From Klebsormidium nitens (lineage: Eukaryota; Plantae; Klebsormidiophyceae), in the NCBI GenBank assembly GCA_000708835.1, contig DF237433.1, positions 1 through 64,000 on the forward strand: a stretch of DNA of 64,000 nucleotides, read 5' to 3'. The stretch's first letter is position 1. Each line of letters starts with the position of its first letter. Shown here one piece after another: positions 1-20,095 of the stretch. A program made the position numbers and the translations under genes. The notes below the pieces were generated by a model. The model saw only the letters and a program-made list of their open reading frames with translations, did no database searches and was not told the DNA's origin.

Positions 1-2
1 CT

Positions 3-2898
3 TGGCGCAAGGCTAGCCTGAGTTTCTTCCGACTGTGTGGACGATCCATCCTGGAGTGTTGCAGCATCTGCGGGCTGCATCCAAAGGTCAGTTCCCTTGC
101 TCAAGTGTCCAAGCTTTTGCTTGCTCAAAGGCATTGCTTGGTGCGGAGTTTTGATACTGAGCGCTGTACTCAACAGGAAGATGAGGGAGAGCCCATCGAG
201 AGTGCGCATCCTGGTCTTTCTCCACGTTAGATTTTGTGAATTTGAAGTCACGGACATCAAGAACTTTAAATCCTCTCGGTGGAGGACTGCAACCTCCTGC
301 AAGGCAGTCAAGGCTGCTCGAAATTGAGATTTTGTTGCACTCAACGCTCTTGCAGCGCACAGGTCCGATCCGCATTCTTGTTCTTGACAGGTACTTCTGT
401 GCGACGGCATCGCTGGTCTGGCTTGCGCCGACGGCGGGCGCCAGAAAGGAGGGTTGGCAGGCACCAGCGCGGCGGCTGTGCGCCCATTCACAGCGCCGAG
501 CCAGGATTCTGCTGGGGTCAACGTAGAGAAGACCATGGAGGCGGGCGTCAACTTCTGCGCTGCGTCTCTCGAGGGGCGGGGGATGAAGCGGCGTCTTGTG
601 ATCCAGCCTGAGCTGCGGACGCTGCTTGCGCGGTTCAGTGGACATCATCCAAAGGACCCCGACCTTGGGAAGCCCCTCGCTCAAAAGGAGTACGTGGAGT
701 TGCTTGTAAGCTATTAAGCGGCAAGCGGTCGCGTGATGGCGCATCAGTCAGAAGTTGCATGTTCTCCCTTGTGAAGAAGTCGGCGAGTTTTGACTAGGCT
801 AGCCCGGTGCATCACGCCCACCTTGCTCAACTTGCTCAGGAGCGGGCAGATTGCGGGGGTGGCGCGCATCTTGGATCAATCAAAACTGGGCTGGTCTTCA
901 AACATAGAAAGCTGACGTCTGAAGCTGACGTGGCACACCAGAGCAAGTTTTTGACTGAGATTGCGCTAGGTGCTAACGATTCATTGTGCTAATGCAGGTT
1001 GCGCTGGAGCGGGCTGACGTCGAAGTGGTGGCCGGCTTCGTGGCAGACCCAGCTGATGCTGATGCAGACCCCATTCTCCTTCACTGGAGGCGGCGGATCT
1101 TGACGGAGCAGGTTGGGCAGATCCGCTCAAAGAACGAAGCCGTGCTCGAGCTCCTTGATGGGATTGAGCGAGAGGCGATGCGTGAGAACTTGCGCTGGCC
1201 CCCGCGCTGCCCCGGCAAGTGGTCCGAGCTGCTCTATGGGCTGGGCACCCCTCTCTCCGTCTCGGACGATTCGAATCTCATTCAGCACGGACGGGCGCTG
1301 GCTGTCGTGCGAAAGCTCCTCCTCGGGGGCGCAGCAAACGGCGAAGACAAAGCCACCTTGGCTGAGCATGCGCCAGTCTTGCGGCGCCTGCTCGACCACT
1401 ACGGTGATGTCTACCCGGACTTCTTCATGCCCGCTCTGCACCACCTGTATCGGCTGACTTTGTTTGGCCGCGGAGCGTGCGGCCTGGGAATTGGGCGAGC
1501 GGGGTGGGCCCTCTCGGCCATCGAAGGGCTTGACTACTGCGTGAGGCTGGCCAGAGCGTTTCGAACGCAGCAAAACGTCCCAAACGCTGAGCAGCTAGAA
1601 GTGTTCCGCTTTTGGGAGGCACGTGCCAACGACCTGCTGCCCGGAATCGAAAGCCTAACCCCTCCAGCCCCACAGCAGTACCCTCTTTCCCAGGCGGAGC
1701 TCCAACTTCTGCGAGACAGGTTGGGGCTCGAGGCCGACGGCTCTGAACCTCACGCCCTTCCTTCCGACCACCCGTTCTGTAAAGAGCAACGCAAGCTGGG
1801 CTGCTATCCCCTGCCGGGCTGGGAGCAAAAGCAGCCTCTCCCCCAGTACAAGCCATTCGAGGACGAGCTTGGGAGGTCCGTTGATCGCCGAGAAGAACAT
1901 CGCTGCCGAAGCGGCCTCACGGTGGGCGAGTTCGATGCTGAGATTGCTGCTAAGAGCAGCGTGAAGTCTGCAAAGCGAATGCAGCAGCACACCAAGGGCG
2001 GTTTTGTGTTCTGCTGTCCCCACAGGGTCATTTACGGGTTCCATGTCATGTTGCGGGGCGAGTCCCCTCGAGACCCGTTCACCGTGCTCTACACGCGCGT
2101 CCGCCGACGGGACCTCCCTGACTTCCTTATCTATGACAACGCATGCAAGCTACAGGCGTATTGCATGAGACGCGAGCCGGCCTTCTTTGCTGATGTCCGC
2201 TTTCTGGTTGACAGGTGAGCGAAGTCTTGCGCTGCCTTTCCATCCTGATTTAAATGCAAGTGACTCGAAGGCAGGACGGTTGAGGTCCGACCGAATCATC
2301 AGGGCACCCAGGCACCAATTGCTTGCCACATGTGGCAGACTGCACAGGGGACGGCAGGTCGAAGGGCTGAGAACTTTTGGTTAGGAGGACCAGGGAAACA
2401 ATCTCGAAAGCAGCTTTGAATGGCAGCTGGCACTCAGCTTCATGATTTCGTTTCCCCTGCAGATTCCACTTCCAACGGACCGATGCTGAGGCGCATAAGT
2501 GTGGGCCGGGGTTCAATCCGGGTGAGTACTTGGACATGGAAGTCAGATCTCGCGAAATGAGTGGCTTGAGCAACTTGATTGTGTGCAGCATACCTTGATC
2601 AGGGCAAGCCTCATGCCTTCGATCCACTTGTCAACCTCGCTTATGTCTCCTTCCAACAGATTACTACGACGCCGTGCGCTGGGTCAACACGTCTGCCGTC
2701 GAGAGCTGCAACTCCTATCTTATCCGATTCAAAGTGTTAGCATGGTTCTCTAGTCTAGATACGTTTTTGGTCATTCTAGCTAACGTTGTCGGTGGGCGAA
2801 ACTCGAAGCTAAGGAGAGTCGATGACCCTAAGTCTCGGATAGCAGGAAGGGTAGACCGTTGGACCCCAGCCGTACAGGCAGCCCTCTTGAACAGTTGA
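3..2898 (+). mobile_element. KDZ (Kyakuja-Dileera-Zisupton)-type transposase, 5'-truncated by the window edge; exons <3-86, 391-705, 998-2214, 2463-2521, 2660-2898
   Basis: GT-AG joins keep one open frame: CCSICGLHPK|VLLCDGIAG...GGFVFCCPHRVIYGFHVMLRGESPRD...IYDNACKL...VDR|FH...HKC...VNTSAVESCNS. The CxxC-CDG, YDNAC, DRFH and NxSxxE motifs match KDZ/HMGXB3-like transposases. Confidence 0.85.
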
Positions 2899-3007
2899 TA
2901 GAACGCGTTTATTATTGAGCTTTCAGCGAGCGTGTTTGATGCTCTTCTTTTCGTTCATGCGTGGGGAGGAAAAGGAAAGGAACCTAGCAGGACACCTCTA
3001 GCACCTT

Positions 3008-3331
3008 TTACATACACTTAGCAATGGAGTATATGTAGCATGATTGCTCTACATGCTTCAGAACACCTGGCACCATTGGCACCTCGGCACCTTTTCTCGC
3101 AAGCATTGACATGAACGGGCAGTTGTCGAAGAACTCAGCCAAGAAAATTTGAGCGTTCGAGGTGCCGGTGGCGGCAACCCATTCATGAGCATGGAAATTG
3201 GAAATCCGGTGCAATCGGAGGGCTTGTGCAGCAACATCACACGGTACTCTGCACATATGATGTGGCGCAGACCAGAAGCCCAGATGACCGGATATACATA
3301 ACTTTTTGATTATAGCAATCAGATAGAGCAT
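3008..3331 (-). CDS. Hypothetical protein at the left edge of the island
   Basis: 107-aa ORF, no recognisable motif. Confidence 0.25.
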   Translation of the reverse strand: MLYLIAIIKKLCISGHLGFWSAPHHMCRVPCDVAAQALRLHRISNFHAHEWVAATGTSNAQIFLAEFFDNCPFMSMLARKGAEVPMVPGVLKHVEQSCYIYSIAKCM

Positions 3332-3612
3332 AGAATCTTTGAAATCAATTATTTTTAGAATTCTGGTCTTCTAGACTTCTGGTCTGTAATATCCATGCAC
3401 GGCCATGTACAAAATCCTTACTCCATAGCTCATATGCATAGAGATGGAGCATGAAAACGATCCATCTCCTGTGTCGAAGATGCACTTAAGCTGCAGACCA
3501 AAAGGCTAGAAGACCGGGTTTTCATATCTTTCTGATTATAGCAATCATAGTCTATGATGAATTCTGAAATAAAATATTTCTAGAATCTTGGACTTTTAGA
3601 CTTTTGGTCTTT
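3295..3612. repeat. Imperfect ~100-bp AT-rich direct repeat (about 3295-3390 and 3520-3612)
   Basis: tgattatagcaatca...gaaat...tagaat.ctgg.ctt.tagactt.tggtct occurs twice. Confidence 0.7.
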
Positions 3613-3781
3613 AAAAATGCACGACTCTATACAACCACTCAAACAAAAGCAACAAACAATGGCCGGGTCATTCTGCATCAGACGATCGACCATGGTGTAA
3701 GTGGTGCGCTTATGTCAATCTACGTGAATGTAAGGCCACAAACCTGTCTCGGTCTTGAAAGCTCGTCCTTACGGCCCTCCT

Positions 3782-6607
3782 CTAATCACAATCATCATAC
3801 TCGCAGCCGGATTTCAGTCGAACCCCTGAAAGGCCCTTGAATTGGCCTTGGGACTGTACCTGACTATCCGTGAATCGACCATCAAAAACCAAACGGTTAG
3901 CGCCTTCGGCAAACTCTAGAATACGTTTCTTAAGCCTCGTTGCCGACAACGAGCTGGTCAGATCCTCTTCCTTAAGCCAAGCCCGAAACGCTTCCCCAAG
4001 CCGTTCACCAACCGCTAAGTGCCAGGTCGGCTTTGTCCCTGGGTTGATGTCTTCGAATTCGAGGCAGTCTACGATCCACCGTCTTGCAATGTCGGAATCA
4101 TTGATATAGGCTTTGACAGCGTCCTCCATGACACGAGGACGGCGCATCAATGGGAGACTCCTTGGATTTGCACGCTTGAGCTCGTGATAACGTTTTGCTC
4201 CTTCTGTATACCATGACAGGCCTTCATCTCGACCCTGTTCACTCTTTAGATACGCTTCAAGTGTAGAATCCATGAGCTTCTGGCGTGGCTTGCTTGGATC
4301 AAGCTTTTCGGGAGGTAAGAATGTGACCAGCATCGGCAGAAGGGCCAAGCGTCGCGTAACACAATAGGTTACGTTTTGAAGAACGGGCCGGTAATTGGTA
4401 TTGAGGACGGTCTTAATACTGATTTTGAAAGTCTCCTGTTTGCTATGCAATCCGCGCCCTGTAGCCGTTCCCGATCCAGACCAGGCTTTTATCGCGGCTT
4501 CGTTCAAGACCGCCTTTTCGCCGGACTCATCCATCTCTCCAAGCCTCCCACCTCGAAGGGCCATTATATGGCTCGAAGCTGATCCAGCCGACCGCTTTCC
4601 CGCCTCGATGATGCAGTCCTCAGACATAAGAACAGCATAGCTTCCCAGAACCTCGAAGTTTGCTAGTTTTGTCAAAGACTTTCCGTTAGCTCCATTGCCT
4701 TGCTTGATCAAGAATAATTGCTCGCTCGTGTCTGCAGTCATACAATATCCGCAGAAAAGTTGATACCAATCGAGCACTTCTCTGTCGTCGTTGAAGCAAT
4801 CGAGCAGAAATTTCTCGAATCGGCTACCGCCTTTTGGCAAGCCGCGAAAAGCCGCCTTGGATGCACGTGAACACAACTGCGCGGGATGGAAAGCGAGCAA
4901 CTTTCCAGTTTCGGTATCAATGACGCCGTTGACGCATGCAAACAAGCACGGGTTGGCGATATCCATCAGCTCACTCAGGCTTTCAGGAGCTTGCAATGAA
5001 TTGATGACAAACTCGAGGCACACTCGAACCTCGGATCTCCGCGTCAAGTCGACTAGATCTTTCCTTTCCGGAAACGGATGCGTTTTGTTGACTATCCTCC
5101 ATGCTTCGTCACATATTTTTCTTTCTTCGTCGGATATCGGGTTGGATGCCCATTCTGGGAGTACCGAGTCAAGGGTCATTGGCTTGTTCATCTGTTTATA
5201 GATTGCTTGCTTGAAGGCGCTCGATCTTTGATTCGAATACCAGGTCAGGATGCGAGACATGTGGGTGCTGAAGACGCTTTGTACGTGGTATGCATTATCA
5301 ATTATCCAGCGGTGTCCGTTCCAATACTGAAAAGATTTTCCCTCAGCGATAATGCGTCCGTTAACGAGATACATAGCCGAGAATATTGCTGCCATTCCAC
5401 GATATCGCTGGGTCACATTACGCTTGATCAGATTGAGTTATGCTTCGAGCGCGGACTCTGACAACTTTCTCGAGTTGTTTGGAAACATACTTTTGTCGTG
5501 TATGGGATGCAATCTCAAAGGGTTGGCATCAAGCAAGGATATTGGAAGTCCGATGTTGCCAAGCTCCACAAGAGGTTTATCCGTACATTCGGAACCAAAG
5601 CATCGATAGAAGATGGTCCATCCGCGCTTCACAAGGGTCATATTATTACTACCATTGTGCCGATGCCCGTGTATGCAAGTTCGTGGGCCCTCACAGATAA
5701 ATGGATAGAGCATGCCATACGAACCTTGAAAGGACACATTTCCAGAATATCGCACATTTTCATCGAGGTTAGCGTCTCGCAACAATTTTATCATTGCATC
5801 AACGATTTTTGCATGCTCGACTGGTTGTGTCTCATGTGAGATATTACGATCCTCTTCTAGGTACATATTATTACCAACAATGCTTACTTTGCCAAGCTCC
5901 TCTGTTTGGTCTGATTCGGAACCACCTACCTCTAGTCCGTGGACTGGGTTGCAAGTCGACGCAAGACTTCCATTCTTCGATCTTCGTGCTGAATCGTTGA
6001 GGAACTTGATAACCCATGATGGAGCTGGTCTGATATTCGTTCTCAAGGGTTGCGTGCACCATGTGTATTTCAGCCCAACATCGTCAGAGCCCGGGGGAGC
6101 CAATGCTATCCCTCCTTCTCCGCGCCCATCAATACCGTAAAAGTGGCCTTTGTAATCAACTCCGGCAAAACATTTACCCGATTGAAGCCCTTCTTTCAGG
6201 GATCCGCCATAAGAGAAATAGTAATGAAAACCTCCGCTTGCAGTCGTTGCTCTCAACGTGTCCGGTTCCCCATGCTCCGCAACTAATCCCTTCCAAAGAG
6301 GCATGCCGGCTAAAAAATCATCATCGGGTTTGTCTCGATTATCAACGTCGAGTACGAAAATATCCGAGATGGCCCCGGTCTTGATGGCAACGAAGTTATA
6401 CTGTTTATCTTCGATAAATTCCTTGATTCGACTTTGCGCGGCTCTCCAATCGGATGGCGACCTAATGGCCCAATCGCCTTGGGAATGCGGCATCGTCCCC
6501 TTGATGCTCTTTGATCCGTCATCCGTTACTCCGACTTTTGCGGGTATCGCATACAGCCCTTGCTGTGCATATGCCTCAAAGACGTCAGCCATCGAGCTCG
6601 TCGCCAT
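3782..6607 (-). pseudogene. Intronless bifunctional primase-polymerase (PrimPol) + D5/SF3 helicase fusion (~940 codons) interrupted by one in-frame TAA at 5440-5438
   Basis: ORFs 5438-6727 and 3782-5416 are in the same frame, separated only by TAA plus 7 codons (SALEA*LNLIKRNVTQRY). PrimPol motifs AIKTG..IFVLDVD and TTASGGFHYYF; Zn-like motif CIHGHRH..SNN..YRC; D5 motifs FACVNGVIDTETG, Walker A QGNGANGKS, GEMDES, VLNTNYRP. Confidence 0.88.
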
Positions 6608-6750
6608 GCTTCTATCTGGTCCAAGGACCGGGAAGGTCCGACGCCCTCCTATGTTTTCTACCCCAGAAAATTTTGCTCGACCTCGAACGCGACACACGTT
6701 GGGGCGTAATGCATTTACATCCAACATCCACCGTTATATGTCTTTGGAAT

Positions 6751-7074
6751 CTAGTACGATTGGATCCACGAGTTCCCAATCTGTGCTTCGTGCAGCCGAT
6801 CCATCGTACGTTTGCTTAGTTTGCTTCCTTTTGCAATTCGTTCGAGAGCTTTTTTCAATAGGATTTCGTCCTTGTGTACCTGATAATAACTTTTGGAGTA
6901 CACTCGTTTCTTCGCCTGATGTTCATCCTTGAAAATCGATGCCTCCAAGCATGCAGCACACGCACTTGACCCGTGATTATGGTTTGTCGACTCCATAGCT
7001 CGGATGCAATGATGCCTCCTGATAGTCATTGAGTAGAAAATTTCTCTCCTATAGAACGCACACAATGTGTGCAA
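6751..7074 (-). CDS. Small basic hypothetical protein (virus-like)
   Basis: ORF tightly packed between the recombinase and the primase; contains KSYYQVHKDEILLKK. Start codon uncertain. Confidence 0.5.
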   Translation of the reverse strand: MHTLCAFYRREIFYSMTIRRHHCIRAMESTNHNHGSSACAACLEASIFKDEHQAKKRVYSKSYYQVHKDEILLKKALERIAKGSKLSKRTMDRLHEAQIGNSWIQSY

Positions 7075-7093
7075 GGTAAGAATCCGGCCCAGC

Positions 7094-8140
7094 TCATTCG
7101 TATCGTCTGTTGTAGAGTTCGTCTGCCGTCCTCATTGAATGACCCATGTATTGTGCCTTTGCTCTTACTTCACCGCGGGACATCAGCTTTGGACTGTGCT
7201 CGGTATGGGAGATATGTCGAAGAAGAGTACAACTGAGGTTTTTGCCAAAGTGCCTCTGGCCGAGGTCGTTTAGAACTACTGTGAAATTCGATATTGGCTC
7301 ATCAAGCCAAACCAGGTAATGCCTTTTGAGGATCAAGTGTTTTCTCGGGATCAGATTGAAAGAGCGGAGAATGACCATCACGAGGTCCTTCGGAATTTCA
7401 AGCCGTCTTACGCCATCCTTCTAAAGAGTCTTGTGTCTACCGATATGGAAAAAGCACCGCCTAGGATCGTCATTCAGCTCGACGACGTTAACATCACCAG
7501 GTTTTACCTCAACACGATCGTTCTTGGATTCCTTTATAAAGAAGACGCATTCGGCGTATTCATTTCTCAACGGTCCCAGCGGCATAGTGTATAGCGCCAA
7601 GATGAGATGATCCATCACGAGCTGCTTATCGTGGCGAGACAACCTTTCCTTTCGACAGAATTTTGGCACCACGCAATGAATAATCTGATCATCGAGTTCG
7701 GATCTCTTTTCCAGCAGCTCACTCCAGGGTATCCAGTTCTCCACCTCCTTTGGCGTTTTCCTCTGCATGGATCGATCGAGCTCTTCCTCGGTTGGCTTCA
7801 TTTTCTGCATATACTTCGAGTATGCTGCTTGCGCCTCTCCGGAAGCAAGAATAGTGAACGGAGCTGCGTAATTGCTCTTTGTGAGGGACTTGAGTAGTTT
7901 GCCATCACGCGATGTAAGACTCTCTATGGTCGCTATCACCTGCTCGTGGTCATCGATCCAATCGAGATCTTGCATGATGTCGGGTCCGAAATCTCCTGCT
8001 GCGTAAACGGTCTTGAGCTGTCTAATGTACACAGACACCGTAGAATCCGACCGGTTGTGGGGAGCTCCACGCAAAACCTTTTCGGGACCTTGGGCCTTTA
8101 GCTTTCTCCACACCTTAGCCTCGAAATTGGCATCCATCAT
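7094..8140 (-). pseudogene. Tyrosine recombinase/integrase-like gene (~350 codons) interrupted by one in-frame TAG at 7423-7421
   Basis: ORFs 7421-8146 and 7094-7381 are in frame (HKTL*KDGVRRLEIPKDL). Candidate catalytic residues appear in order: PLRNEY (R), HKT (K), LLRHI, MGHS (H), ELY (Y). Confidence 0.8.
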
Positions 8141-8208
8141 CCGCAATGAAGCGGCTTATTAATACTCATCCTCATAGATATCTTTTGTAAGATACACACC
8201 ATCCCGGG

Positions 8209-9048
8209 TCACAACCTGTTGGGATTGAAGTATTTTCCGTTGTAGTGAATCTTGCTCATAAAATTCGACCAATTACTTGGAGACATCACCGTTTGCGGCT
8301 GACTGATCGAGGTTAACAAGTGATCTCGCGGTATCAATTGGAGTGTTCGATGGATATATTTGCTGAGCATCTTTGACAAAGGGATTCGATCTCCGTCTTC
8401 GAAGACGAGTTCGTATGCTCCTTTCCGTCGTGAAGTTTGTAGCAGGTAGCTGGCACCCTTGAGACCCCGTTCCCCTTTAAGCACGATTGGAAGGTCGTGC
8501 ATTTTTATCCGGCGACGATGCTCGGGGTCCAGAAGCATGAACCATTCAAGGATCAGATGCCACATGACGACCTTCACTTCTTTTGAAGTCAGATCGCGTC
8601 CCAAATCTTCCAGGCTCAACTCTCTCACTTTGCGGGATAGCTTCTTTCCAAAGGCTTCGGTCTCTTTAACGGTCATCTCGGAGTCCTCGTTGCTTGTTGC
8701 CTCTTCCAATCTGCGTTGTGTAAACTCCTTGAGAGCCTTGTTCTCCTTCTTGAATGGTGCATAGTATGTTTGATAAGCATCTCCATACCCAAGCTTACGA
8801 CAGATCGTGAGGAATGGGGCTAGGCGAGTTCGTCGGCTACCAGGATTGTCGTAGCGCTCTAGTACACTTGCAACGATCTTCTGGGCCCTGCTCCTTATCC
8901 ACGAGGGATCCTCGGGCATCTTGTCTTCGAAACACATGTTATAGAGGAGCTGAATCCCCTTCAAATACTGCTCTGTGGAGCTCTCCGTTCGAATCCCATC
9001 AACCAAGATCCTCCTCAGACTATCCATACTTATCCGTACCTGACTCAT
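8209..9048 (-). CDS. Divergent paralogue of the adjacent tyrosine-recombinase-like gene, probably catalytically inactive or C-terminally truncated
   Basis: TESSTEQYLKGIQLLY..EDPSWI aligns by eye with SDSTVSVYIRQLKTVY..QDLDWI, and KVVMWHLIL with QLVMDHLIL. It ends at NPNRL*, where the paralogue has TLLRH. Confidence 0.65.
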   Translation of the reverse strand: MSQVRISMDSLRRILVDGIRTESSTEQYLKGIQLLYNMCFEDKMPEDPSWIRSRAQKIVASVLERYDNPGSRRTRLAPFLTICRKLGYGDAYQTYYAPFKKENKALKEFTQRRLEEATSNEDSEMTVKETEAFGKKLSRKVRELSLEDLGRDLTSKEVKVVMWHLILEWFMLLDPEHRRRIKMHDLPIVLKGERGLKGASYLLQTSRRKGAYELVFEDGDRIPLSKMLSKYIHRTLQLIPRDHLLTSISQPQTVMSPSNWSNFMSKIHYNGKYFNPNRL

Positions 9049-9355
9049 TGTAAGAAAATAAACTTCGAATGTCTTCACGTCTTGCAAGAGCTTATTTCAA
9101 CAAGCTCTGTCAGAATAAAGTGTCATCAAAAACTCTCTCAATCATTTATACTCTGAAAACTGCTAGCGGGGGGTCAAAAAATGTTGAGAAATCTCGAGTT
9201 TTGTCAAGACAATAACTACTTATTTCAATGGCACATGACACTTTTTTGAGGCCTATCCGCTTGCGCTTCATCCATGCTCCAAAAAAAAATGCATCAGGGG
9301 GCAGGTTTTCTTTTTTTCTATTCCTATCGTCATAAGTGCACTAGGCGGCCACGAT

Positions 9356-9865
9356 ATGGAATCCACAAAAAGAAGCTTTCGAGTCGTTGCTGCCTTCGAT
9401 TCAAAAGGCAACGACGCGCTCGCTCTGTTGAAAGATACAAGGCTTGAGATCGATGCTACGAAGGGCCGCGTGTCTCAAGCGGGGGCGCGTGCGGGGTCCC
9501 AGCTGTTTCGAACTCAAAAATGCCTGCAAGATAAAAAGGCTTCGCTACCACAGAGGGTGGTAGTAATGATCCAGGAGACCACAAGAGCTTCAGCAAAGAA
9601 GAAGTACGGTTACTCCGTCGAGATTGGCCCGGTCAAGAAAAGCAACCGTCCAACAGACATGCCATTCGAGGGTACCTTTCAAAGCACTCCCACGAAGATG
9701 GCAATCGAAGAAATCGAACGTACGAAGCCTTCTACAAAAAGTTCGAAGACGAAAGCCACTCAGACTCGCAAGCCGGGAAAGAAAAACGTAACGAAGACGC
9801 CCGCTGCAAAGAAAAAAGCCGAGTCGATCGATTCCAACTCTGATTCAGGTTCAGAATCGGATTGA
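9356..9865 (+). CDS. MC1-like (non-histone chromosomal) DNA-binding protein with a Lys-rich tail
   Basis: KRSFRVV...IQETTRASAKKKYGYSVEI resembles the MC1-like proteins of large DNA viruses (KRSFxVV...RETTRGSxKKxYxY); KKP/AAKKK-rich C-terminus. Confidence 0.65.
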   Translation: MESTKRSFRVVAAFDSKGNDALALLKDTRLEIDATKGRVSQAGARAGSQLFRTQKCLQDKKASLPQRVVVMIQETTRASAKKKYGYSVEIGPVKKSNRPTDMPFEGTFQSTPTKMAIEEIERTKPSTKSSKTKATQTRKPGKKNVTKTPAAKKKAESIDSNSDSGSESD

Positions 9866-11250
9866 CTGCAAAGAGCATGAAGATCATCTATCGTCCATTG
9901 AAACTACACATCCGCAACAACTTTTCTAGTCCAGAAAGATCTGCGATGGCCCCTGACAGTTTCATGTGGTCACCAATCGACAACATGTAGTCAGTGACTG
10001 ATATGTCAGGTAAAATGAGTTTGGTTAGAGGGGGGAACAACCACGTCCAAGATGCTTGATAACGGCGTCGAACGAGATTATACAGAAGTTATTTAAACTT
10101 AACAACTCCTTCTTCAATGAGAAGCTTTATCTGTTAAATCTAAAAACAATTCCATGTGGTCACCGACAGCTTCATGTGGTCACCGATCACCAACGTTATC
10201 ATGCAAGCCGTAGCCCTCGTTTGGTTCAGACTCGGATTGATTGCAAAGTGCATGAAGATCATCGATTGTCCGTCGAATCTATCACATCCGAAACAATATT
10301 CGTTCAAAAACAATTTGCAATGTCCCCTGACAATTTCATGTGGTCACCAATCTACAACATGTGGACAGTGACTGACAAGTCAGGCTAAAAAGACACTGGT
10401 CGGAGTGGAGAACAACCACGTCCAAGGTGCTCGATAACGGCGTTGAACGAGGGTTATACGAATTTTTTCAAACATAATAACTCGTTCTCCAATGAGAAGC
10501 TATATGTTTAAGATTTTGGAACAATCTCATGTGGTCACCGATCACCGACGTCACCAAACCAGCCGTAGCCTTCATTCAGGTTCAGAGTCGGATTGATTGC
10601 GAAGCGCATGAAGATTATCGATCGTCCGTTGAATCCACACATCCGCAACAATATTCTAGTCTAGAAACATTTTGCAATGTCCCCTGACAATTTCATGTGG
10701 TCACCAATCTACAACATGTGGTCCGACCACACTCACGGTCAGTGACTGCAATGACATGTTGAGCTAAAATTCTGGTCAGCGCGGCGAACAACCACGTCCA
10801 AGGCGCTTGATAACGGCGTCGAACGAGGATATACGGAAGTTTTTTAAACGTAAGAACTTGTTCTAAAAGCTATATGTGTTAGGTTCCGGAACAATTTCAT
10901 GTGGTTACCGACAGCTTCATGTGGTCACCACATTGCCGATGTCATCAGGCAGACCAGCCGTAGCCCTCATTCAGGTTCAGACCCGTGATTGATTGCAAAG
11001 CGCATGAAGATCATTGATCGCCCGTTGAATCCACACATCCGCAACAATTTTTCTAGTCCAGAAACATTCTGTAATGGCCCCTGGCAGTTGCATGTAGTCA
11101 CCCATGAACAACATGTGGTCACCAATCAACAACAAGTGGTCATTGACATGTCCGACTGGAATTCTGGTCAGAGCAAAATTCGACCAACGTCCAAGGATCT
11201 AGAACAACTTGTGTTGTCACCGAAATCCAACGTTCATGTGGTCGAAAGCA
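9840..11250. repeat. Diverged tandem array, ~4 units of ~350-400 bp, rich in catgtggtcacc motifs
   Basis: Anchor ggttcaga..cggattga.tgc at 9848, 10223, 10579, 10974; anchor gataacggcgt at about 10058, 10433, 10809; about a dozen (t)catgtggtcacc-like motifs. Confidence 0.9.
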
Positions 11251-11415
11251 ACGTGGTTTGGCAAATCAACGTGGTTTCTCACCCTATTGTAGCATGTGTC
11301 AGGTTTCACACTTGGATTGATTGCTAAGCACATGAAATGGATACTGACCTTGTAACAGGTCGCCTATCAGTCCTCCACAATTATGATACTTTTCTACCCC
11401 AGGACAATATAGATC

Positions 11416-11796
11416 ATGCAACAAAAACGATCGCCCGCTGTTCGATTTGTATACACAGATAGACGTCACAATATGCGTCATTTGTTGGATGAGGTCAAGT
11501 GTTATGACTTGGATTCAGAGCGTGTCGAAATGTGGATCGAACGAGGATTGTACATTCGATCGATTAAAAGTGCGGATCTAAGAAGGGGGGTGTTGCTGAT
11601 TCTAGCACGTGCTATGGAACCGGTGTCAAAGACAACCACTCTAGGTTCTCTGACGACTTTTCTTGACGCTGCGATAAGATCTCCATATAAAGAAGTCAGA
11701 TACTCGGCGCAAGACGTCAATCTGATCTTATACACAGCGGAGCAAGTGCTTGATAACGGCGTTGAACGAGGCTATACAGAAGTTATTGAAACGTGA
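11416..11796 (+). CDS. Hypothetical protein, convergent with primase-helicase 2
   Basis: 126-aa ORF ending 30 bp from the stop of the opposite-strand gene; its 3' end is part of the upstream repeat unit. Confidence 0.55.
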   Translation: MQQKRSPAVRFVYTDRRHNMRHLLDEVKCYDLDSERVEMWIERGLYIRSIKSADLRRGVLLILARAMEPVSKTTTLGSLTTFLDAAIRSPYKEVRYSAQDVNLILYTAEQVLDNGVERGYTEVIET

Positions 11797-11826
11797 CTCG
11801 TACTCCAATGAGAGACTATACATATG

Positions 11827-14800
11827 CTATCTCTCTACGATACTCTCTTTTGTTGGCGTATTGAGCTGGAATCCCCGATAACCCCGGACTGTGTGCCCCG
11901 GGTTGGCGAATCTTAGCTTGGATGGCTTGTCCGGGCCCTCCAGCCCCTTCTTCTTGCAAGGATCCGCGAACTTCCGATCATTGTGGATCTGTGGCACGTC
12001 GCTGTCGCCGAATCTCACGCCGTCGACCAACCTGTCCGGGTTGTTATATGCGTCCATGAGACTGCGTGTGGACTCGAAAGCCTTGATGTTCATTTTGCCT
12101 TCCTCCTGAAGGAAAGCCGCGAACGGATCGTTTTCCTGCTCCCAGGAGTGCATGTACGCCTTGCTGCTCTCCGGCATGTCAAGAAGCTTCTTCCCACTTG
12201 CGTACCAGTCCTTGGCACCTTGCACCAGAAATACCAATAGCTTCTCGGGCTCTGCCTTCAAGATGTCTTCCAATGCGAGGTCCCGGATTCCATGAAATGG
12301 GTTGTCCGGGTTGTAGCCCGGTTCGTCCGGATAGAAAAAGCGCATTGGAAATACAAGCGTCAAGAGGCGTCGCTTGAGCGCTATCGTCCAGGTCTTCACT
12401 CGAGGAGGGTAGTTGGAGCAGAGAATGTGCTGCAGATGGAACATATCGTGCATAAGCTCGTGAACGCGTTCTTGACACTCATGAAGAAGGCAGTTTTATA
12501 AGGTGGTGAGTAGGTGTCAACGTCCATGGACGGCACAGACGGCTAGGACAGCATAATTCGAAAGCCCTCGAAATCTGGTCTCGGCCCGAATATCTCCATC
12601 GAGGCCCATGGACAGCTGTGCTGTCCATCAAGACGAGGCTCCATCTACAAAATGCGCTTCATGGACGACACAGACGGCTAGGACAGCATAATTAAAAAGC
12701 CCTCGAAATCTAGTCCTGGCTCGAAGATCTGCATCGAGGCTCCTGGACAGCTGTGCTGTCCACCAAGATGAGTCTCCATCTACAAGATGCTCTTCACGGA
12801 CGGCACAGACGGCTAGGACAGCATAGTTGGGAAAAGCCTCCATATCTGGTCTCGGCCCCGAAGATCTGCATTGAGCTCCCTAGAGGACAGCTGTGCTGTC
12901 CATCAAGACGAGTCTCCATCTACCAATTGCTCTTCAAGGACGGCACAGACGGCGAGGACAGCATGGGCGGACCTTGCCGAGAATGCGAAGAGCCTTCAAC
13001 AACAGAGTTGTTCTTTGAAAGTTCTCATATATTAAAGAAAGCTTTCCGAGCACGATTACATCAGCTTTCCGCAGAAAGAAGATACGGCTCCGCCAGCATC
13101 AGATACCGGTGACTTACCAGCTGAGTTGTGGCAAATGTGACGTAATCCGAGTAGAGCGCTCTACTCGTGATAAAGGCCTCTCCGATCAACCGCTTCACGT
13201 TGGCCTCTGAAAACTCATCCGTATCTTCCGTCTCCGAGCATACAGCGAAACGAATGTTTCGTAAACCTGGAAAACAAACGTGTTCAAGACCTTCCGGATA
13301 TCGCACACACCAATAAGACATTCTTAGGCACGATTCGCTGGTAATCGATCAAACATTTATCTTGAGATGAGCTTCGTACAAAAACTAGCTCTATCACTGA
13401 GCGCTTGAAACAGAACGGCAACGAGTTGATATACAGTTGGGCATAATCTTTTTCAAGCGCAATAGCAATCGTCGTTACCGAAGCTTCGTATCCTAGCACA
13501 CATATTTCTGACCGTGAGTTGCTCACCTGCTTCCGCTGGATTTGCAGCACCTTTACCGAGCGGCCGTTGCCCCTTGGACGTCACAAGCATGTCCTTCGAG
13601 ACGTCCTTGTAGAACGGGCCGATCACTCGCTTCAGCATAGCCAACAAAAGGCTCTTTCCCGCTCCGCCCTCGCCGATCATCGTCAACATGACCTGGTTGG
13701 ACGTGTGCCCCGTGATGCCGTATCCAAGAATGCGCTGGAGATAAGCAAGCGCCTCCGAAGTGTGCGTGATTTGACGAAGAAACTCTCCCGTTCTGCCCAA
13801 CGGCGTAGCAAGCCCAGTCGACGGCCACCAGACGGGGAGCTTGAAAGACCACAAAAACTGCAAGACAATACAGAAAAGAACAATAACCAAACGCAATGCA
13901 GGACTTTGCAATTCTCTCAAGCATTTGCATCAACTATGCAATCCAGATGGGTCCGTTGGTAACGTAATTATGGTCATCATACAAAAAAACGCCACATGCT
14001 ATTCGAACTTGTGGCGGGGACATGAAAAGGAGCACATTTCAGAACGTTGGCAGTGTGCATGATTGCTGACAAAAAAGACACTATGAAATGCTTTGCTCAA
14101 GAAGAAGCGGCCCCCAAGTCAATAAAGTCCGGCCAATTCGAGTGGAGTTTCAAACAAAGTTAACAGCAGCCTCAAATACCCACCTTCGGATGGTGTGGCA
14201 CCAGGATACCGCTCTTAAGCAGTATGACTCCGTTTTGAAGAGGAAGCGCATCTCTGTTGGTATTCAACGACTCTTCAAATGCCGTCTCCAAGCAATACCC
14301 TTTCAGAGTTGTCATGATCTGGCTCATCTTGGCGTTGAAGTTGAAGTTCACGAGCTTCTCCTTCGTAGACTTTTTCTCCTCCTCCGCTTGCGAACTCTTG
14401 CCGTCGGCATCCGACGCAGCCTCCTTTTTCTTCTCCTTTTCTTTCTCCGTCTCCTTTTTATACGCCTTGCTAATCTTGTTGAGCTCTCCGCGGCAAATTT
14501 GGCTCGCAAGTCGTCCATTCACGTCCACCCCCCAAACCGATCCGTCATAATAAAACCACTTTTCGTTGCAGAAAACGAGCTTGAAACCCGTGTACGTTTG
14601 CAAGCGGTCGATGATCAATGCCCCTCCTTCATCACCTGGAAGAAATGTCTTCGACTTGTCATTGGCAAGCAATAGATTGGCGAGTGGCAGCCTCACGTCT
14701 GTATTCACGCGCGGCGAGACACTTTTCCTAGGAGGCGATTCGAGCACGACTAATTGCAAGTCATGCATTCGAGATTTTCGTTTCAAAAACAGTCCTTGAT

Positions 14801-16243
14801 CTCGAAGCTCTTCAATTCTTTCTTGAAAGGTTAACACAAGAGACGCATATTGGCTCAGGTCTGCATTATCGCGAAAGTTCTGCTTTCAAGAGGTTGACGT
14901 TGTAAGCAAACCTCGTGCACTTGTGACTGGGGGGCACCGAGGGGCGCACTGGCGGGGTCCCTCGAATTTGACTTCGTCCGCCAAATGGCCGAAGTCATGT
15001 TTTTCCAATTGGAAGTCCGTCCAACTTGGACAAACCTCTAGATCTTTTGACTTGATAGCAACTAGTCATAATGTTGTTTGAAGCACGGCTTACCCGCCGA
15101 AACCGAGAGGTTCTGTCGCAAAAACCAGAGGGGGAGCAGTTCTCGACTCTCGTACAATCGATCGCGATCGCTGTTCAGCGGAGAAGCGTCGGAATAAGCT
15201 GCGGCCACCGGGAAGCGAAGACGCCCGAGTTTTTTGTTTCGCTTGCTGTCGCCAGTCTTGCACCGTTGGCTGTGGCATACGTAGGTGATCTCTGTTCCTC
15301 TTCTGAGCAGACCAAAATTGTTGCTGCTGTGCGGCTGCGCCCCCTCCTCTGCATACGGACACACCCGCCCTCCCACATCATTTCGCCAGTGGTACATCAC
15401 GGCCCCAAAACCGGCAGCCGTGCTCGGCTCCGCCTTCGAGAAGACAGAGGAGTTGTCGCCGAAACTGCTGAGCATGCCTCGCATTGCCTTGACCACGTCT
15501 TGCTGCAGCTCAAGATCCATTAGGTCCGGCGCCTCAAATTCCGCATTGGCTCTCGCGCTAGGCACGGGCGCACTGGAAAGCTCGGGTGGCCCTTTCGAGC
15601 GTTGCCCAGAACGCCTCGACACCCGCTCGTTGAGAATCTCGATCAACCAATTCGGGAGAGGGGGCAAATCTTTTGCTGGGGGGAGCTCGCCTCCTCCAAC
15701 GACTAAATATCGTGCCGTCTCACCGAGTCGCTCATATGACGACGGGGGGCATGCGATCATGCCGTTTGAGCTAACACCCCTCATGTCGACTCCCACCTTC
15801 TTCAAAACCGCCTTTCTAGATTCCGGATCTCCGACTCTCAGCTCTAGCTTTGCAAAGTGGGTCGGTGTCTCCGCGCCCAGCCCCGACTCGAGACTTCTCT
15901 GATGAGAGAAGTAGATGTGCACTCCCCCGCTGCCCGTGCGCACCCGGGGAGCATCAAACGCGCCGTGCTCGGTTTCCCAGAATGCTAGCTGCTCCATGCC
16001 CCTGTCACCGACGTCAAAGTCGAGCACGACAATTCCGGACGCTGCCGTGTTGATCAGCAGCGTGTTGTCAGAGGGGTGGAAGTAGCGGTTGATCAGGCAA
16101 TTTGCTAAGGTAGATGCCGGCCAATCTCGTGGAGGAACCATGCATTTTTTTCCCTTCTTGGAGTTCCACTTGGTGTTTGCCGTGAATACCACATAGCCTT
16201 TTGCAACCAAGTCGCGAGCCGCAATCTCCTGCACAACAAACAC
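11827..16243 (-). CDS. PrimPol + D5/SF3 primase-helicase with 4 spliceosomal introns (~890 aa); exons ~16243-15094, 14635-14184, 13857-13527, 13266-13118, 12429-11827; true start uncertain
   Basis: Donors GTAAGC, GTGGGT, GTGAGC, GTAAGT and acceptors TTCCAG, TTGCAG, TTCCAG, CTGCAG all have matching phases. Joins read VSAG|DEGGAL, PHHPK|FLWSF, AEAG|LRNIRFAVCSET, TTQL|HILCSNYPP. Motifs VVLDFD, RTGSGGVHIYF, Walker A IGEGGAGKS. Confidence 0.88.
12520..12965 (-). repeat. ~130-bp tandem repeat (3-4 units) inside intron 4 of primase-helicase 2
   Basis: gacggcacagacggctaggacagcat at about 12530, 12665, 12798, 12939; it is the reverse complement of the dispersed family at 16.4-19.5 kb. Confidence 0.9.
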
Positions 16244-16394
16244 AGGATTGTAACCTTGTTGAAAGCCTACCGCACAAGTTCATCTGACTATGTGACCACG
16301 ACCGACGACTGCTAAGCCGAACCAAACGTACGGGTAAATCTCAAAGTGTTGTCCCAACCGTGGTCGGCGAAATCGAAATCGCGAGCTACTTTCT

Positions 16395-19300
16395 CAAACT
16401 GCTGTCCCAGCCGTCCAAGCCGTCCATGAAGACGAGTTCGTAGATGAGACTTCCTCTACATGGACAGCACTCCCGTCCTTGGTCGGCAAAACCGAAAAGC
16501 AAGCTGCTTTTTTAAAGTGCTGTCCCAGCCGTCCAAGCTGTCCAAGAAGACAGCTTTGTAACTGCGACTCCCTGTAGATGGACAACACTCCTGTCCGCGG
16601 ACGGCCTAGTCAACATCGTCAGCTATTCCGAAGTGCTGTCCATAAAGGGGAATTGAGTGAAGAGGGACGCTCCTTCAGCTGCACTCGAGTAAGTTCAACT
16701 CACCATTGCACTTGCTCCCATCACTCTTTCTTGGTCCGCGAGACGATGGTTCTGAGCGGAATCAACCGGCAGTGGACAATCGTCCAGCATCTCCTTGTCC
16801 GATGCCGTCTCCTCGTCGTCCGTTTCAGAAGATTCGTCGTCCGCACCTTCGCAATTATCACCGCACTCTGATGAAGCCGAGTCGGAACTGCCCGGCCCCT
16901 GCATCCAAATGGTAATATTGCTGAGGCAGCCTGTCACAAAAGGCCCAATGCTTTCCGGAGCCGAACAGGTAAACTGCAACAGGTTTTCGAGAAGGCATGC
17001 CATTACAGCAAGGTGGGTGTCGCATAAAATTTTCGCCGCGGCTGACGAATTTCCTTCCTTAAACGGGTTTAATGTGACATATGGAAGCACGGCCCTTGGG
17101 AGCAACTTGACTGGAGATGGGCAGATTGTGTTTGTTTACGACAGGCCTATCCAATCGGTGGAGGTTATCAAATTGGAGGGTCCAGACCAGCGCACCTGGG
17201 CCAAGGACGATGAAGACTTCCAAGATTCTAAAGGCTTGTCGCGTGCAGAACACAGCTACCCCTGAAGCCGCTCATTAGAAGATATCTTACACATCCTCCT
17301 TAGCTTCCAAAATTGTCTGAGACGGCGACGAATAGACACACGCAACGATGCATCCTTACGCTAGCATCCTCTGCCCCCATCACTTTGATATTGGCAGTCG
17401 AGTGTGCTCCTTCAACCCGACTTGCCGTCTGCTCGCTCGTCGCCCCTCCCTCATTCTCTGATTCGCCACTATGCTTGCGTTTTCGGCCCCGCGCCTGGCC
17501 CGCAACTTCCTGCATCAATCGCACACATCGTCACAAATCAGATCACACCGGATGATTAGCTTTTTCAAGGCCAATGACGGTGGCAAAGCCGAATCGAAAT
17601 TGTGAGCTATTTCCGAAGTGCTGTCCGAACCGTCCAAGCTGTCCATGAAGACAAATTCGTAGTTGAGAGTTCCTCTAGATGGACAGCAGTCCCGTCCGCA
17701 GGCCGGCGAGGCCGGAATCGATATTGTGAGCTCCTTCCAAAGTGCTGTCCGAACCGTCCATGGAGACGAAACTGTAGTAGATGGCGTCTCTCCATGGACA
17801 GCACTGCGGTCAGCGCTTGGTGGGTCTCTTTGGCGGCATGACTGTCGACAAGAAGAACTACAAGATTGGAAGATTCTGAAAGCGCTGTCCATGCTGTCCA
17901 TGCCGTCCATGGACACGAAAACTGTAGAAGATGACGCCTCTCCATGGACAACACTGCTGTCAGCGCTTGGCAACATGGATGCATTGATTTCAAACCAATC
18001 TGACCTGAGGCGCAGATCCCCCCACTCTAATTGAAAAAGTAAAGCTCATCTCAAAGCAAACGTTAAGAAGATTACCCACCATCTGATCTGCTCGAAGCTC
18101 TCTTCTCTGGTCCGCACGACGATGAGCATGGGCAGTTTCAACTGATGGGAGGCGGTTGTCACTGTTTCTAGCAGAAGACGCTGCTCGTTGCGACGAGGCT
18201 TTGGAGTCCTGCATGAAGGAAGTGCATGAAAGGTTGCCGCTTTTTGATTCCCAAAAGCTGGCACCAAAAAGTTGCAGGAATTGCCGGCCTGGATTACACA
18301 GCAGACCGCAAGAGCACGCTGCACCTTCTCGAGACTTCAAGCTATTCGTCGTAACTCGGGTATAGCTTTAAAATTCTGAACGTTGTGGCCAGTATCGTGT
18401 TGAAAGCGACTTTTTGCAGTGAACCCCACAAGGCTCACAAGGCAGACAACACCATCGTCCATCAAGACGGCCATTCTATTCAAAGAAACAGCCTCGGTGG
18501 ACTGCACGGACAGCCAAGACAACACTCTCGAAATCTCAAAGGATTTCAAACACTGTCAACGATCGTAGATTCTTAAGTCAGGACCGCGGAGCCGGACAGC
18601 ACTGCCGTCCATGGAGACAAAAGTTATTTTAGAAAGTGTCTCCATGGACACCGCGGACAGCGTGGACAAGACTTTGCAAATTTCACAGAAAGCCACAATC
18701 CACTGAGTGGAACGAGATTTTAGTAAAAGTAGCTCGCTGGAACTTGAATCACCCAGAAGTAGGGATGCTTGAGGCGCCGGGGCTTCAAACAATTTGTAGC
18801 CAGTATTCGAGGCAGGAAAAACTTTAAAGCAGTGCAATCACCTACAAAGAAGGGACCTGGCTGGGTGGCAAAGGGAGCTGTATTCTGCTTCACTGGGCCC
18901 CACATCGTGGACCAAGAAGCAAGCAGCACTTGGGGGACTGACCTTATCTACTGAACTCAAGACTCCATGACTGGCAGCGGTCTTCTCTAAAGTAGGCCCC
19001 CAGAAGATGAGTGTAGCAAAACACGTACCTGCGCAACGGTTGCATGAGAAGAATGCACCATAACCTGCCCAGGGTCTTTTTCACCACCTGTTCCCTGAAA
19101 CTTCTCCTTCGACATGACACAATTTGGGAGCGCCGCAGCCTCTGATGCAGGGTGGTCGCCATTTACTAAGGCTCCATCTCCACCATTCATGAGTCCACTC
19201 AAGCACAGGGTTCTTCTCAATGCTTTATCCGTTCCTCTAACAATGTTACAAATCAGACCCTTGAGGAATATCGCTCATGACGGAACTCTTCAATGCCTTC

Positions 19301-19545
19301 TCGCTTCTCATGCGAATGCAGACCAAAGATTGAAAACTTTGCCGCCCTAGACAGCTGGAAGACAAGGTCACAAGATTATCACTACGGCGACTAGGCCCTT
19401 GGTGGCTAGCCCAACTAAAGCAAGATATTCAACCACTTTTTTGGAGAGTTGCGGGAAGTGCTGTCCGAGCCGTCCAAGCCGTCTACCTTAGCGGAACTTG
19501 TAGATGGACTCGACACTCGATGGACACAGTGCTGTCTATGAAGAC
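16395..19545. repeat. Dispersed 70-90 bp semi-palindromic repeats (agtgctgtcc...ggacagcact)
   Basis: Copies at about 16400, 16515, 16630 (partial), 17615, 17740, 17880, 18595, 19458; inner inverted arms such as ccatggagacg...cgtctctccatgg. Confidence 0.85.
16795..17265 (+). CDS. Hypothetical protein between hairpin-repeat clusters
   Basis: 156-aa ORF with a Ser/acidic N-terminus; no motif recognised. Confidence 0.35.
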   Translation: MSDAVSSSSVSEDSSSAPSQLSPHSDEAESELPGPCIQMVILLRQPVTKGPMLSGAEQVNCNRFSRRHAITARWVSHKIFAAADEFPSLNGFNVTYGSTALGSNLTGDGQIVFVYDRPIQSVEVIKLEGPDQRTWAKDDEDFQDSKGLSRAEHSYP

Positions 19546-19989
19546 CTTGATCTGCGGGCTTGATATTCGGAATATTGAAGTTTTCAAGAACTCTGGGACT
19601 GTCGAGGCGCTCCTGTGGTTTTTGGATCTTAAGAAGTTGGAAATGAGGAAAGTTGGGAATGAGGATTTTGATTTGAAATTCTGGATTTTATAGGCTCGCA
19701 GACGGGCAGCTCCTGCGGTCCGGTCCGGTCTCCAGGCCACTCATGCGCGCACGTACGAGCCCCGAAAGGCCAGAATTTTCCCTCGGTCCGGTCCCGAGGC
19801 CACGTACAAGCCCCGAAAGGCAGGATTTGTATCGGACCGAAGGAGACACTGGGAAGGTGGCAAGAATGCTGAGTCGGGCCGAAATACGTACGCAGCTGCC
19901 ACGTACGGCACGGCGTCTGCTATTCGTCGGACCGTCCACCCCCAAGTTAGCGGGTCGGTTTGCCCATCCGGACCGTTTTTGGGGACCGA

Positions 19990-20095
19990 GGCGCGGTGCG
20001 GCACCGGGTCTCGCCGAAAAGGGGTGACACGTGTATGGTTGTCCATTTTATGCCGTTAACAGATTGTTATTTGCCCACGTGTCCCCCCTCTTCCA
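19990..20095. repeat. Left copy of an ~80-bp direct repeat (partner at ~25090-25175), with an internal inverted arm
   Basis: gcggcaccgggtctcgccgaaaaggggtgacacgtg...ttttatgccgttaacagattgtta; the arm cacgtgtccccc at ~20076 is inverted to ggggtgacacgtg. Confidence 0.75.

What the first reader, a model, noticed from the sequence alone, without database searches (positions are those of the whole stretch)
3000..19690. Capsid-less virus-like island: PrimPol-D5 helicase, tandem tyrosine recombinases and MC1-like protein
Seen: a compact gene set for replication (primase-helicase), integration (YR) and DNA packaging/bending (MC1-like), next to a motif-rich repeat array, inserted among spliced host genes. 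No capsid, A32 ATPase, PolB or retroviral integrase was recognised. Known: D5 helicases, YRs and MC1-like proteins occur in large DNA viruses and Polinton-like viruses. Inference: this is either a self-replicating, YR-integrating element family of algae or a remnant of a giant endogenous virus.
Basis: partly seen in the sequence, partly recalled or inferred. Interest (0 to 1): 0.85.

Follow-up and report, generated by a model that had tools for sequence, protein, structure and literature searches.

The report
Capsid-less viral replicon beside spliced replicase
In a Klebsormidium-type green alga, a broken copy of a repeated virus-like copy-and-integrate cassette (primase-helicase, recombinase, predicted DNA-bending protein; no capsid gene seen here) sits tail-to-tail with a second, intact, spliced primase-helicase gene, and the cassette is likely a virus replication module that has been spreading without its coat.

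Summary
The genes are real, but the 'island' is two units. Unit A (about 3.0-11.4 kb, intron-free): palindrome, Prim-Pol/D5 helicase, 81-aa ORF, OLV11-type tyrosine recombinase (YR1), catalytically incomplete YR2, NCLDV-type MC1-like gene, 375-bp array. This copy is broken: one in-frame stop in the replicase, one in YR1. Relatives are whole and linked: replicase and YR homologs share 13 contig lengths, YR and MC1 share 6, and three related genes are annotated in Klebsormidium nitens. The order palindrome-helicase-YR matches the published 'replicative end module' of Polinton-like viruses (PLVs). No capsid or A32 gene was found in the 64-kb window. But K. nitens has 7 published PLV capsid loci whose link to A I could not test. 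Unit B (19.2-11.5 kb), not described in the finding, is a second Prim-Pol/SF3 gene only about 25% identical to A's. It has nine exons and an open 1,101-aa frame, is spliced in RNA contigs from four studies, has expressed paralogs, and carries about ten 50-bp inverted-repeat modules, all outside exons. The left neighbour is a KDZ-like transposase, linked to A in one other copy. Verdict: new variant of the PLV replication module, probably free-standing.

The parts
1..2898 (+). 3' part of a spliced KDZ (Kyakuja-Dileera-Zisupton)-like transposase gene; its 5' end lies outside the window; possibly part of the mobile unit
   Evidence: PF18758 E 0.012, below cut-off; RNA contigs with splice joints, mostly paralogs, plus a 0-difference piece at 2659-3081; one DNA contig of another copy joins 2770-2902, 3036-3178 and the YR1 end 7017-7181 in the same order (record 2)
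3036..3178 (.). conserved spacer shared with another copy (26 differences in 143 bases); function not assigned
   Evidence: record 2; no Pfam match for ORF 3011-3331
3268..3547 (.). imperfect palindrome (44-nt arms, 3268-3311/3343-3386) with a 55-nt direct repeat (3267-3321/3493-3547); candidate origin or recombination site (inferred)
   Evidence: I5, D16; DNA fold z -3.65, 0 of 200 shuffles as stable
3782..6607 (-). unit A replicase: Prim-Pol fused to D5_N/SF3 helicase, broken by one in-frame stop at 5438-5440 (start at 6607 inferred from homologs; the ORF is open from 6727)
   Evidence: 61% identical over 923 aa to intact 931-aa P0209; Walker A GNGANGKS in the sequence
6751..6996 (-). 81-aa ORF with a CxxC motif, conserved directly after YR1 in relatives
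   Evidence: 60-62% identical to 80-aa P0033/P0035; fused behind YR in gene call P0036
7094..8140 (-). YR1: OLV11/PLV-type tyrosine recombinase with R-K-R-H-Y catalytic set, broken by one in-frame stop at 7421-7423
   Evidence: model of relative P0002 pLDDT 92.7 matches XerA, XerH, Tre, Cre
8209..9048 (-). YR2: recombinase-derived protein lacking the catalytic Lys loop and the C-terminal His/Tyr motifs; predicted non-catalytic DNA binder
   Evidence: HMM E 1e-19; hhalign 98.6%; groups with other YRs, not inside the YR1 clade (quick tree)
9356..9865 (+). MC1-like protein (giant-virus type) with basic tail
   Evidence: Foldseek BFVD: top 10 of 500 counted matches are all NCLDV proteins, 2 of the 10 named MC1/non-histone chromosomal protein, best E 5e-3, none at E<=1e-3; model pLDDT 58.7; 13 homologs including K. 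nitens KFL_011770020
9843..11340 (.). 375-bp tandem array (3.4 copies, 77% match, plus a degenerate tail); each unit holds the 3' end of the MC1 gene, the 3' end of ORF 11416-11796 and TGTGGTCAC motifs
   Evidence: 8 of the 9 TGTGGTCAC sites in the window lie here
11416..11796 (+). 126-aa ORF of no known family; overlaps, antisense, the 3' untranslated end of the unit B transcript
   Evidence: RNA contigs of B reach 11532-11560
11532..19190 (-). unit B: nine-exon Prim-Pol/D5_N/SF3 gene, 1,101-aa open frame with an acidic, low-complexity N-terminus and an RKRK motif. Exons 19190-19029, 18208-18080, 17509-17360, 16898-16704, 16228-15094, 14635-14184, 13857-13527, 13266-13118, 12429-11827 (stop), then 3' UTR
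   Evidence: three introns (15093-14636, 13526-13267, 13117-12430) joined in RNA contigs of 4 of 4 runs, listed pieces with 0 differences; three upstream joints from contigs with extra letters, probably a close copy; 14183-13858 and 16703-16229 inferred from GT-AG and frame; Pfam/PHROG hits
12525..19540 (.). about ten 50-bp modules GYYGTCCAT..TGTAGA..ATGGACRRC (inverted sites, fixed spacing), in introns and upstream of unit B; those in the last intron are inverted relative to the rest
   Evidence: 20 of 22 window hits of TGGAC[AG]GC lie in 11.5-19.7 kb, all non-exonic; 0.57 expected, max 3 in 300 simulations; alignment; no covariation

Best explanation
Unit A is a broken copy of a multi-copy Klebsormidium cassette built like the replication-integration end module of Polinton-like viruses, which likely spread on its own without capsid genes, and unit B beside it is a separate, intact, spliced primase-helicase gene. 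Proposed working of an intact A: YR1 recombines at sites near the palindrome to excise a circle and to insert it elsewhere (inferred from the family). The Prim-Pol/SF3 protein opens the palindromic origin and primes and copies the circle with no other polymerase (inferred). MC1 bends or compacts the DNA for recombination or for carriage in a helper virus particle, and YR2 binds DNA as a non-catalytic regulator (both inferred). Shown: gene identities, order, linkage in relatives, the two stops. B is transcribed and spliced by the host (shown) and likely recognises the 50-bp inverted modules in its own introns (inferred).
For: Gene set and order palindrome-helicase-YR match the end module in PMC11296320 (passages). 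Intact relatives: single 931-953-aa replicases and YRs with conserved R202, K247, R318, H344, Y353 in 46 sequences and a Cre/Xer fold. Linkage by shared contig length: 13 of 35 YR contig lengths recur among 28 replicase ones, 6 recur among 12 MC1 ones, 1 carries all three. K. nitens gene model KFL_011090010 fuses a YR end to the replicase, which shows the same order at another locus. In the source run 259 of 545 laid pieces are under 90% alike and 124 are 90-95% alike (whole 20-kb stretch). 14 of 15 listed differences in the replicase and YR1 fall on third codon positions (only 40 of 2,884 rows were shown). The family YRs form one clade (SH-aLRT 99, quick tree) with internal divergence down to about 40-55% identity, so the family is old and diversified. 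No capsid or A32 gene in 64 kb.
Against: No termini, target-site duplication, empty site or circular junction was found. Flanks of the other copies could not be read, and K. nitens carries 7 PgVV-group PLV capsid loci (PMC10120064 Table S5) that might adjoin such modules. The capsid search used one PLV as query, and divergent capsids are easily missed. Contig-length matching is indirect. MC1 is linked only in part of the family (6 contigs) and its assignment is weak (E 5e-3). One other copy keeps the KDZ 3' end beside A, so a transposase rather than the YR may move it. Junctions are shared by other samples (records 7, 14, 26), so this insertion is not recent.
Confidence: 0.5

Rival explanations
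1. Unit A is the surviving end of an ordinary endogenous PLV (PgVV group) whose capsid module was deleted or displaced here, perhaps by unit B; other copies are full proviruses.
For: YR1 is OLV11-type, and both viral loci found with the family alignment carry an A32 ATPase gene; L001 also carries capsid-like genes (23-24% identity). K. nitens has 7 PLV capsid loci. YR is the commonest integrase of PgVV-type PLVs, and AEP replicases pair with YRs in these viruses. B abuts A about 30 bp after the ORF 11416-11796 stop, inside an array-like unit.
Against: No capsid or A32 trace in the window. MC1 was not reported as a PLV-encoded gene in the passages read. Family YRs lie apart from the L001 YR in the tree. 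No IMG/VR contig holds a close relative.
Confidence: 0.3
2. A, and perhaps B, is cargo of a giant KDZ/Zisupton-type DNA transposon, like the YR-rich Plavaka giant repeats of Amoebidium; the KDZ enzyme moves it.
For: A second copy joins the KDZ 3' end, the spacer and the YR1 end in order at a uniform 82-85% identity (record 2). The KDZ family is transcribed and spliced. Precedent in PMC11244446 (passages).
Against: One contig only. Other KDZ-like contigs end or diverge at the last exon (loose ends). No terminal repeat found on the right. The YR and replicase are conserved as if needed.
Confidence: 0.12
3. A is a fragment of a giant endogenous virus (NCLDV).
For: MC1-like and YR folds match NCLDV proteins best. 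Klebsormidium holds NCLDV core genes (PMC5294986, passages and table).
Against: No NCLDV core gene recognised in 64 kb. The replicase is of the PF09250 Prim-Pol type with nearest outside hits mostly among phage/plasmid-type primases. The same small cassette recurs on many contigs.
Confidence: 0.08

Closest known systems
PLV 'replicative end module' (inverted repeat, primase-helicase, tyrosine recombinase), PMC11296320; OLV11-like YR, PMC4642659
   Same: Order repeat-helicase-YR, D5-like SF3 helicase, OLV11-type YR, small accessory ORF
   Different: No capsid, A32 or protease module at this locus; adds an MC1-like gene, a non-catalytic YR paralog and a 375-bp array; multi-copy in a charophyte
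PgVV-group endogenous PLVs of Klebsormidium nitens (7 capsid loci, PMC10120064 Table S5)
   Same: Same host genus; a virus group that commonly uses YR
   Different: Defined by capsid genes, which were not found here; their gene maps are pictures I could not read, so linkage is untested
Transpovirons and proposed mobile AEP-SF3 replicases (12 copies in Bodo saltans virus), bioRxiv 10.64898/2026.10.13.758929
   Same: Capsid-less replication modules; a stand-alone AEP-SF3 gene resembles unit B
   Different: As described there, transpovirons use pPolB plus DDE transposase and the AEP-SF3 copies lie in virus genomes without flanking repeats; B is nuclear, has eight introns, is spliced and carries repeated inverted modules
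Plavaka giant repeats of Amoebidium, PMC11244446
   Same: YR-rich intron-poor clusters beside a fungal-type DDE transposase
   Different: Different transposase family; no primase-helicase or MC1 mentioned in the passages read
Cryptons; bacterial pipolins and phage satellites (recalled, from no call)
   Same: YR mobility without capsid; satellites pair a primase-helicase with an integrase and iteron origins
   Different: Cryptons lack a replicase; pipolins use a PolB; satellites are prokaryotic

Membership tests
Polinton-like virus | major and minor capsid genes at this locus | tested here: not met
   No unassigned ORF of capsid size in 2.9-11.8 kb; tblastn of L001 capsid-like proteins against the window gave only one 28-aa hit at E 0.69; single query, so decayed remnants could be missed
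Polinton-like virus | A32 packaging ATPase at this locus | tested here: not met
   No hit at E<=1 with L001 A32; no Pox_A32 in 19 + 10 ORFs scanned
Polinton-like virus | capsid module beside other copies of the family | not testable with these tools
Polinton-like virus | terminal inverted repeats | tested here: inconclusive
   None between 2601-3800 and the rest of the window or; ends may be eroded or outside the window
PLV replicative end module | inverted repeat, then primase-SF3 helicase, then tyrosine recombinase | tested here: met
Tyrosine recombinase (YR1) | R-K-(H)xxR-H/W-Y catalytic set and Cre/Xer fold | tested here: met
   (R202, R318 invariant; K247, H344, Y353 at least 90%); on relative P0002; the window copy has an internal stop
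Tyrosine recombinase (YR2) | complete catalytic set | tested here: not met
   KT loop deleted and frame ends before the RH, H and Y motifs
Giant endogenous viral element (NCLDV) | core genes (PolB, capsid, A32, VLTF3, RNA polymerase) in a long gene-dense tract | tested here: not met
   None recognised among the ORFs listed; only those in 1-25 kb were scanned against Pfam
NCLDV MC1-like proteins | MC1 fold | tested here: inconclusive
   Consistent NCLDV hits, prob 0.99, best E 5e-3, model pLDDT 58.7; no Pfam hit
KDZ/Zisupton transposon | terminal repeats and target duplication enclosing unit A | not testable with these tools
   5' end of the KDZ gene lies outside the window
Transpoviron (as described in 10.64898/2026.10.13.758929) | pPolB plus DDE transposase | tested here: not met
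   No pPolB found; replicase is Prim-Pol/SF3 and the internal integrase is a YR

The most novel reading that the evidence does not exclude
Klebsormidium hosts a class of capsid-less self-copying nuclear DNA elements built on Prim-Pol/SF3 replicases, in two stages: an intron-free YR-integrating replicon with its own DNA-bending protein (A), and an intron-bearing, host-spliced replicase gene that carries its own origin repeats in its introns and multiplies with no integrase (B).
Probability: 0.2. Interest if true: 0.85.

Novelty: new variant of a known kind. Interest (0 to 1): 0.62.

Why it matters
Recent work proposes that PLV replication modules can live as autonomous elements, but the examples in the passages read come from virus genomes and endogenous PLVs. 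A multi-copy free-standing family in a cultured sister lineage of land plants would make that testable by assembly and PCR. Unit B is the more surprising part: a phage/plasmid-type primase-helicase with eight introns, spliced in routine cultures, with expressed paralogs. It is either a domesticated viral replicase or a self-copying gene, and both can be tested.

Tried and rejected
No whole genome held. No RNA holder was listed for 3000-11800, and none of 4 RNA-type runs had a contig over 3336-11339 at 80% likeness; contigs show presence, not absence, so this is not used as evidence. Scans for related loci: viral contigs empty for the helicase, MC1, replicase alignment, P0066 and P0064; hits only at 23-24% (a PLV-like and a virophage-like contig examined, L003 not examined); metagenome contigs empty twice. 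None of 10 window ORFs is in the protein collection letter for letter. MC1 against solved structures: nothing by sequence or wide fold search (best Z 4.1); Atlas on homolog P0055 gave no usable hit. Pfam and PHROGs did not recognise the YRs. The 50-bp modules as a conserved hairpin: rejected, 0 compensatory changes in 9 pairs; 3 of 4 modules folded better than shuffles (z -2.5 to -3.5), 1 did not. Stop-codon reassignment as the cause of the two internal stops: rejected, since TAA and TAG end neighbouring ORFs and relatives are open. Summed depth was not used as copy number. CpG depletion in A: none (o/e 0.99-1.26 in genes). Earlier scan findings: nothing. Literature searches that found no description of either unit. 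The Iyer 2014 KDZ paper is not held. No complex prediction was run.
Full report
Host and setting. The window is a spliced eukaryotic genome. Named homologs of its genes come from Klebsormidium nitens, so the host is inferred to be Klebsormidium. Near-identical DNA occurs in runs of other samples, and pieces span the KDZ-A junction (X4, 2596-3336, 1 difference), the A-B junction (X7, 11468-12479, 12 differences) and the right edge (X4, 19322-20323). The arrangement is therefore shared and not a recent insertion.

Unit A genes. Prim-Pol (PF09250, E 4e-16) and D5_N (E 1e-9) ORFs are in one frame, separated by a single stop at 5438-5440. The read-through aligns at 61% over 923 aa with an intact 931-aa protein; 953-aa relatives also exist. 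Of 15 hits at E<=1e-20, 8 are family members at 57-71% and 7 are outside hits at 25-32%, 4 of them named as phage/plasmid-type or putative primase/helicases and 3 unnamed. YR1 (8140-7094) has one stop at 7421-7423. It has 15 homologs at 53-92%, and its profile finds 940 proteins at E<=0.001. In 46 of these the catalytic R, K, R, H and Y are invariant or nearly so. A model of relative P0002 (pLDDT 92.7) matches XerA, XerH, Tre and Cre and, among viral models, proteins of Aureococcus, Tetraselmis and Pyramimonas viruses. Aureococcus virus carries an OLV11-like YR according to PMC4642659 (passages). YR2 is homologous (E 1e-19; hhalign 98.6%) but lacks the Lys loop and C-terminal motifs. A quick tree of 72 rows (the careful search did not finish) places it outside the YR1 clade. 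An 81-aa ORF after YR1 is conserved. ORF 9356-9865 has 13 homologs. Its weak model (pLDDT 58.7) retrieves NCLDV proteins in all top ten BFVD rows, two named MC1/non-histone, best E 5e-3, so MC1-like is likely but not proven. PMC11464507 reports a megavirus MC1-domain protein as the most abundant giant-virus protein in virophage particles (passage).

Unit A non-coding parts. A palindrome at 3268-3386 (z -3.65) and a 55-nt direct repeat lie just past the helicase stop. The 375-bp array is made of units holding the 3' ends of the MC1 gene and of ORF 11416-11796, which suggests tandem amplification of a two-gene tail. No terminal repeats were found.

A is a family. Using printed contig lengths as labels, 13 of 35 YR contigs recur among 28 replicase contigs, 6 among 12 MC1 contigs, and one 91-kb contig carries all three. 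Two further contig lengths were set aside because they entered only through the 80-aa ORF. This is indirect. Three annotated K. nitens genes are relatives (71%, 60%, 67%), one of them a YR-end/replicase chimera with the same order. Among the 40 difference rows shown of 2,884, 14 of 15 in the replicase and YR1 are third-position changes, against 6 of 16 in YR2. One 4.5-kb contig of another copy joins the KDZ 3' end, the 3036-3178 spacer and the YR1 end.

Capsid question. At this locus no capsid or A32 gene was found. The viral loci found with the YR alignment carry an A32 gene and, in L001, capsid-like genes, at only 23-24% YR identity. PMC10120064 lists 7 PgVV-group capsid loci in K. nitens (supplement Table S5); its gene maps are pictures and gave only labels. 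Whether they adjoin A-type modules is the main open point.

Unit B. A second Prim-Pol/D5 gene runs on the minus strand from 19190 to 11827. RNA-type contigs from 4 of 4 runs (four studies) skip 14636-15093, 13267-13526 and 12430-13117 at GT-AG sites, and the listed pieces have no differences from the window. Joining the five 3' exons gives 889 codons without a stop, with Walker A GEGGAGKS. Adding four 5' exons gives 1,101 aa. Three of those joints are seen in contigs with extra letters, probably from a close copy; two introns are inferred (15 of 39 joints were shown). B is 25% identical to the A-family replicase, so it is not a copy of A. RNA contigs about 80% alike show expressed paralogs (records 6 and 12). 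Twenty of 22 window hits of TGGAC[AG]GC lie in B, none in exons, against 0.57 expected. They form about ten 50-bp modules with inverted GTCCAT/ATGGAC sites at fixed spacing, conserved in sequence without covariation, as expected of protein-binding sites. The likeness to iteron origins of satellite primase-helicases is recalled, not tested. Fourteen contigs of the source run differ at one module position, so the module also occurs elsewhere. No integrase lies in B.

Mechanism and comparison. The order repeat-helicase-YR is the replicative end module of PMC11296320 (passages). BioRxiv 10.64898/2026.10.13.758929 (passages and section 13) reports that AEP replicases pair with YRs and may move independently. 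A works like that module; it fails the PLV test at this locus. Excision, self-primed copying, reintegration and the roles of MC1 and YR2 are inferred. Confidence: free-standing family 0.5, PLV remnant 0.3, KDZ cargo 0.12, giant-virus fragment 0.08.

Papers seen. Passages only: PMC5294986, PMC11244446, PMC11296320, PMC4642659, PMC6431247, PMC5890265, PMC11464507, 10.1101/2022.07.28.501842, 10.1101/2022.12.26.521929, 10.64898/2026.06.19.733378. PMC10120064: passages, rows of supplement 2 (cut when stored) and part 1 of 3 of supplement 3. 10.64898/2026.10.13.758929: passages and one section. Preprint supplements are closed and may list Klebsormidium elements. Nine searches returned no description of either unit in listings or passages read; most subscription journals are not covered.

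Noticed in passing
window 19687-20900: GC-rich stretch with short direct repeats followed by DNA that has diverged matches in the source run; probably another repeat element at the right edge of unit B
   Followed up: no
window 21045-24646 (-) and 57614-60512 (+): Spliced genes with an N-terminal coiled coil or small domain and a P-loop region, resembling Crinkler/RHS-type families (recalled; no Pfam support)
   Followed up: partly
window 26918-28746 (+): Leucine-rich-repeat membrane protein gene with 72-bp repeats, in two frames
   Followed up: no
window 40185-44313: Two paralogous coiled-coil genes in inverted orientation, 83% complementary over 802 nt
   Followed up: no
window 46400-53230 (-): Three tandem paralogs of a membrane protein gene, spaced about 2.1 and 3.5 kb
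   Followed up: no
window 31240-31326: Perfect 36-nt inverted repeat with a 15-nt loop
   Followed up: no
window 53869-54345 and 62382-62825 (+): Two related short basic ORFs beginning MARGRP/MARSRP
   Followed up: no
window 28921-29724 (+): Host membrane-protein exon similar to the C-terminal half of K. nitens model KFL_011770020, which is thus probably a chimera of an MC1-like gene and a host gene
   Followed up: partly
L001 10848-11798 and 14336-16990: PLV-like contig with a Tet/JBP oxygenase (E 3e-20) and a large primase-helicase-like ORF
   Followed up: partly
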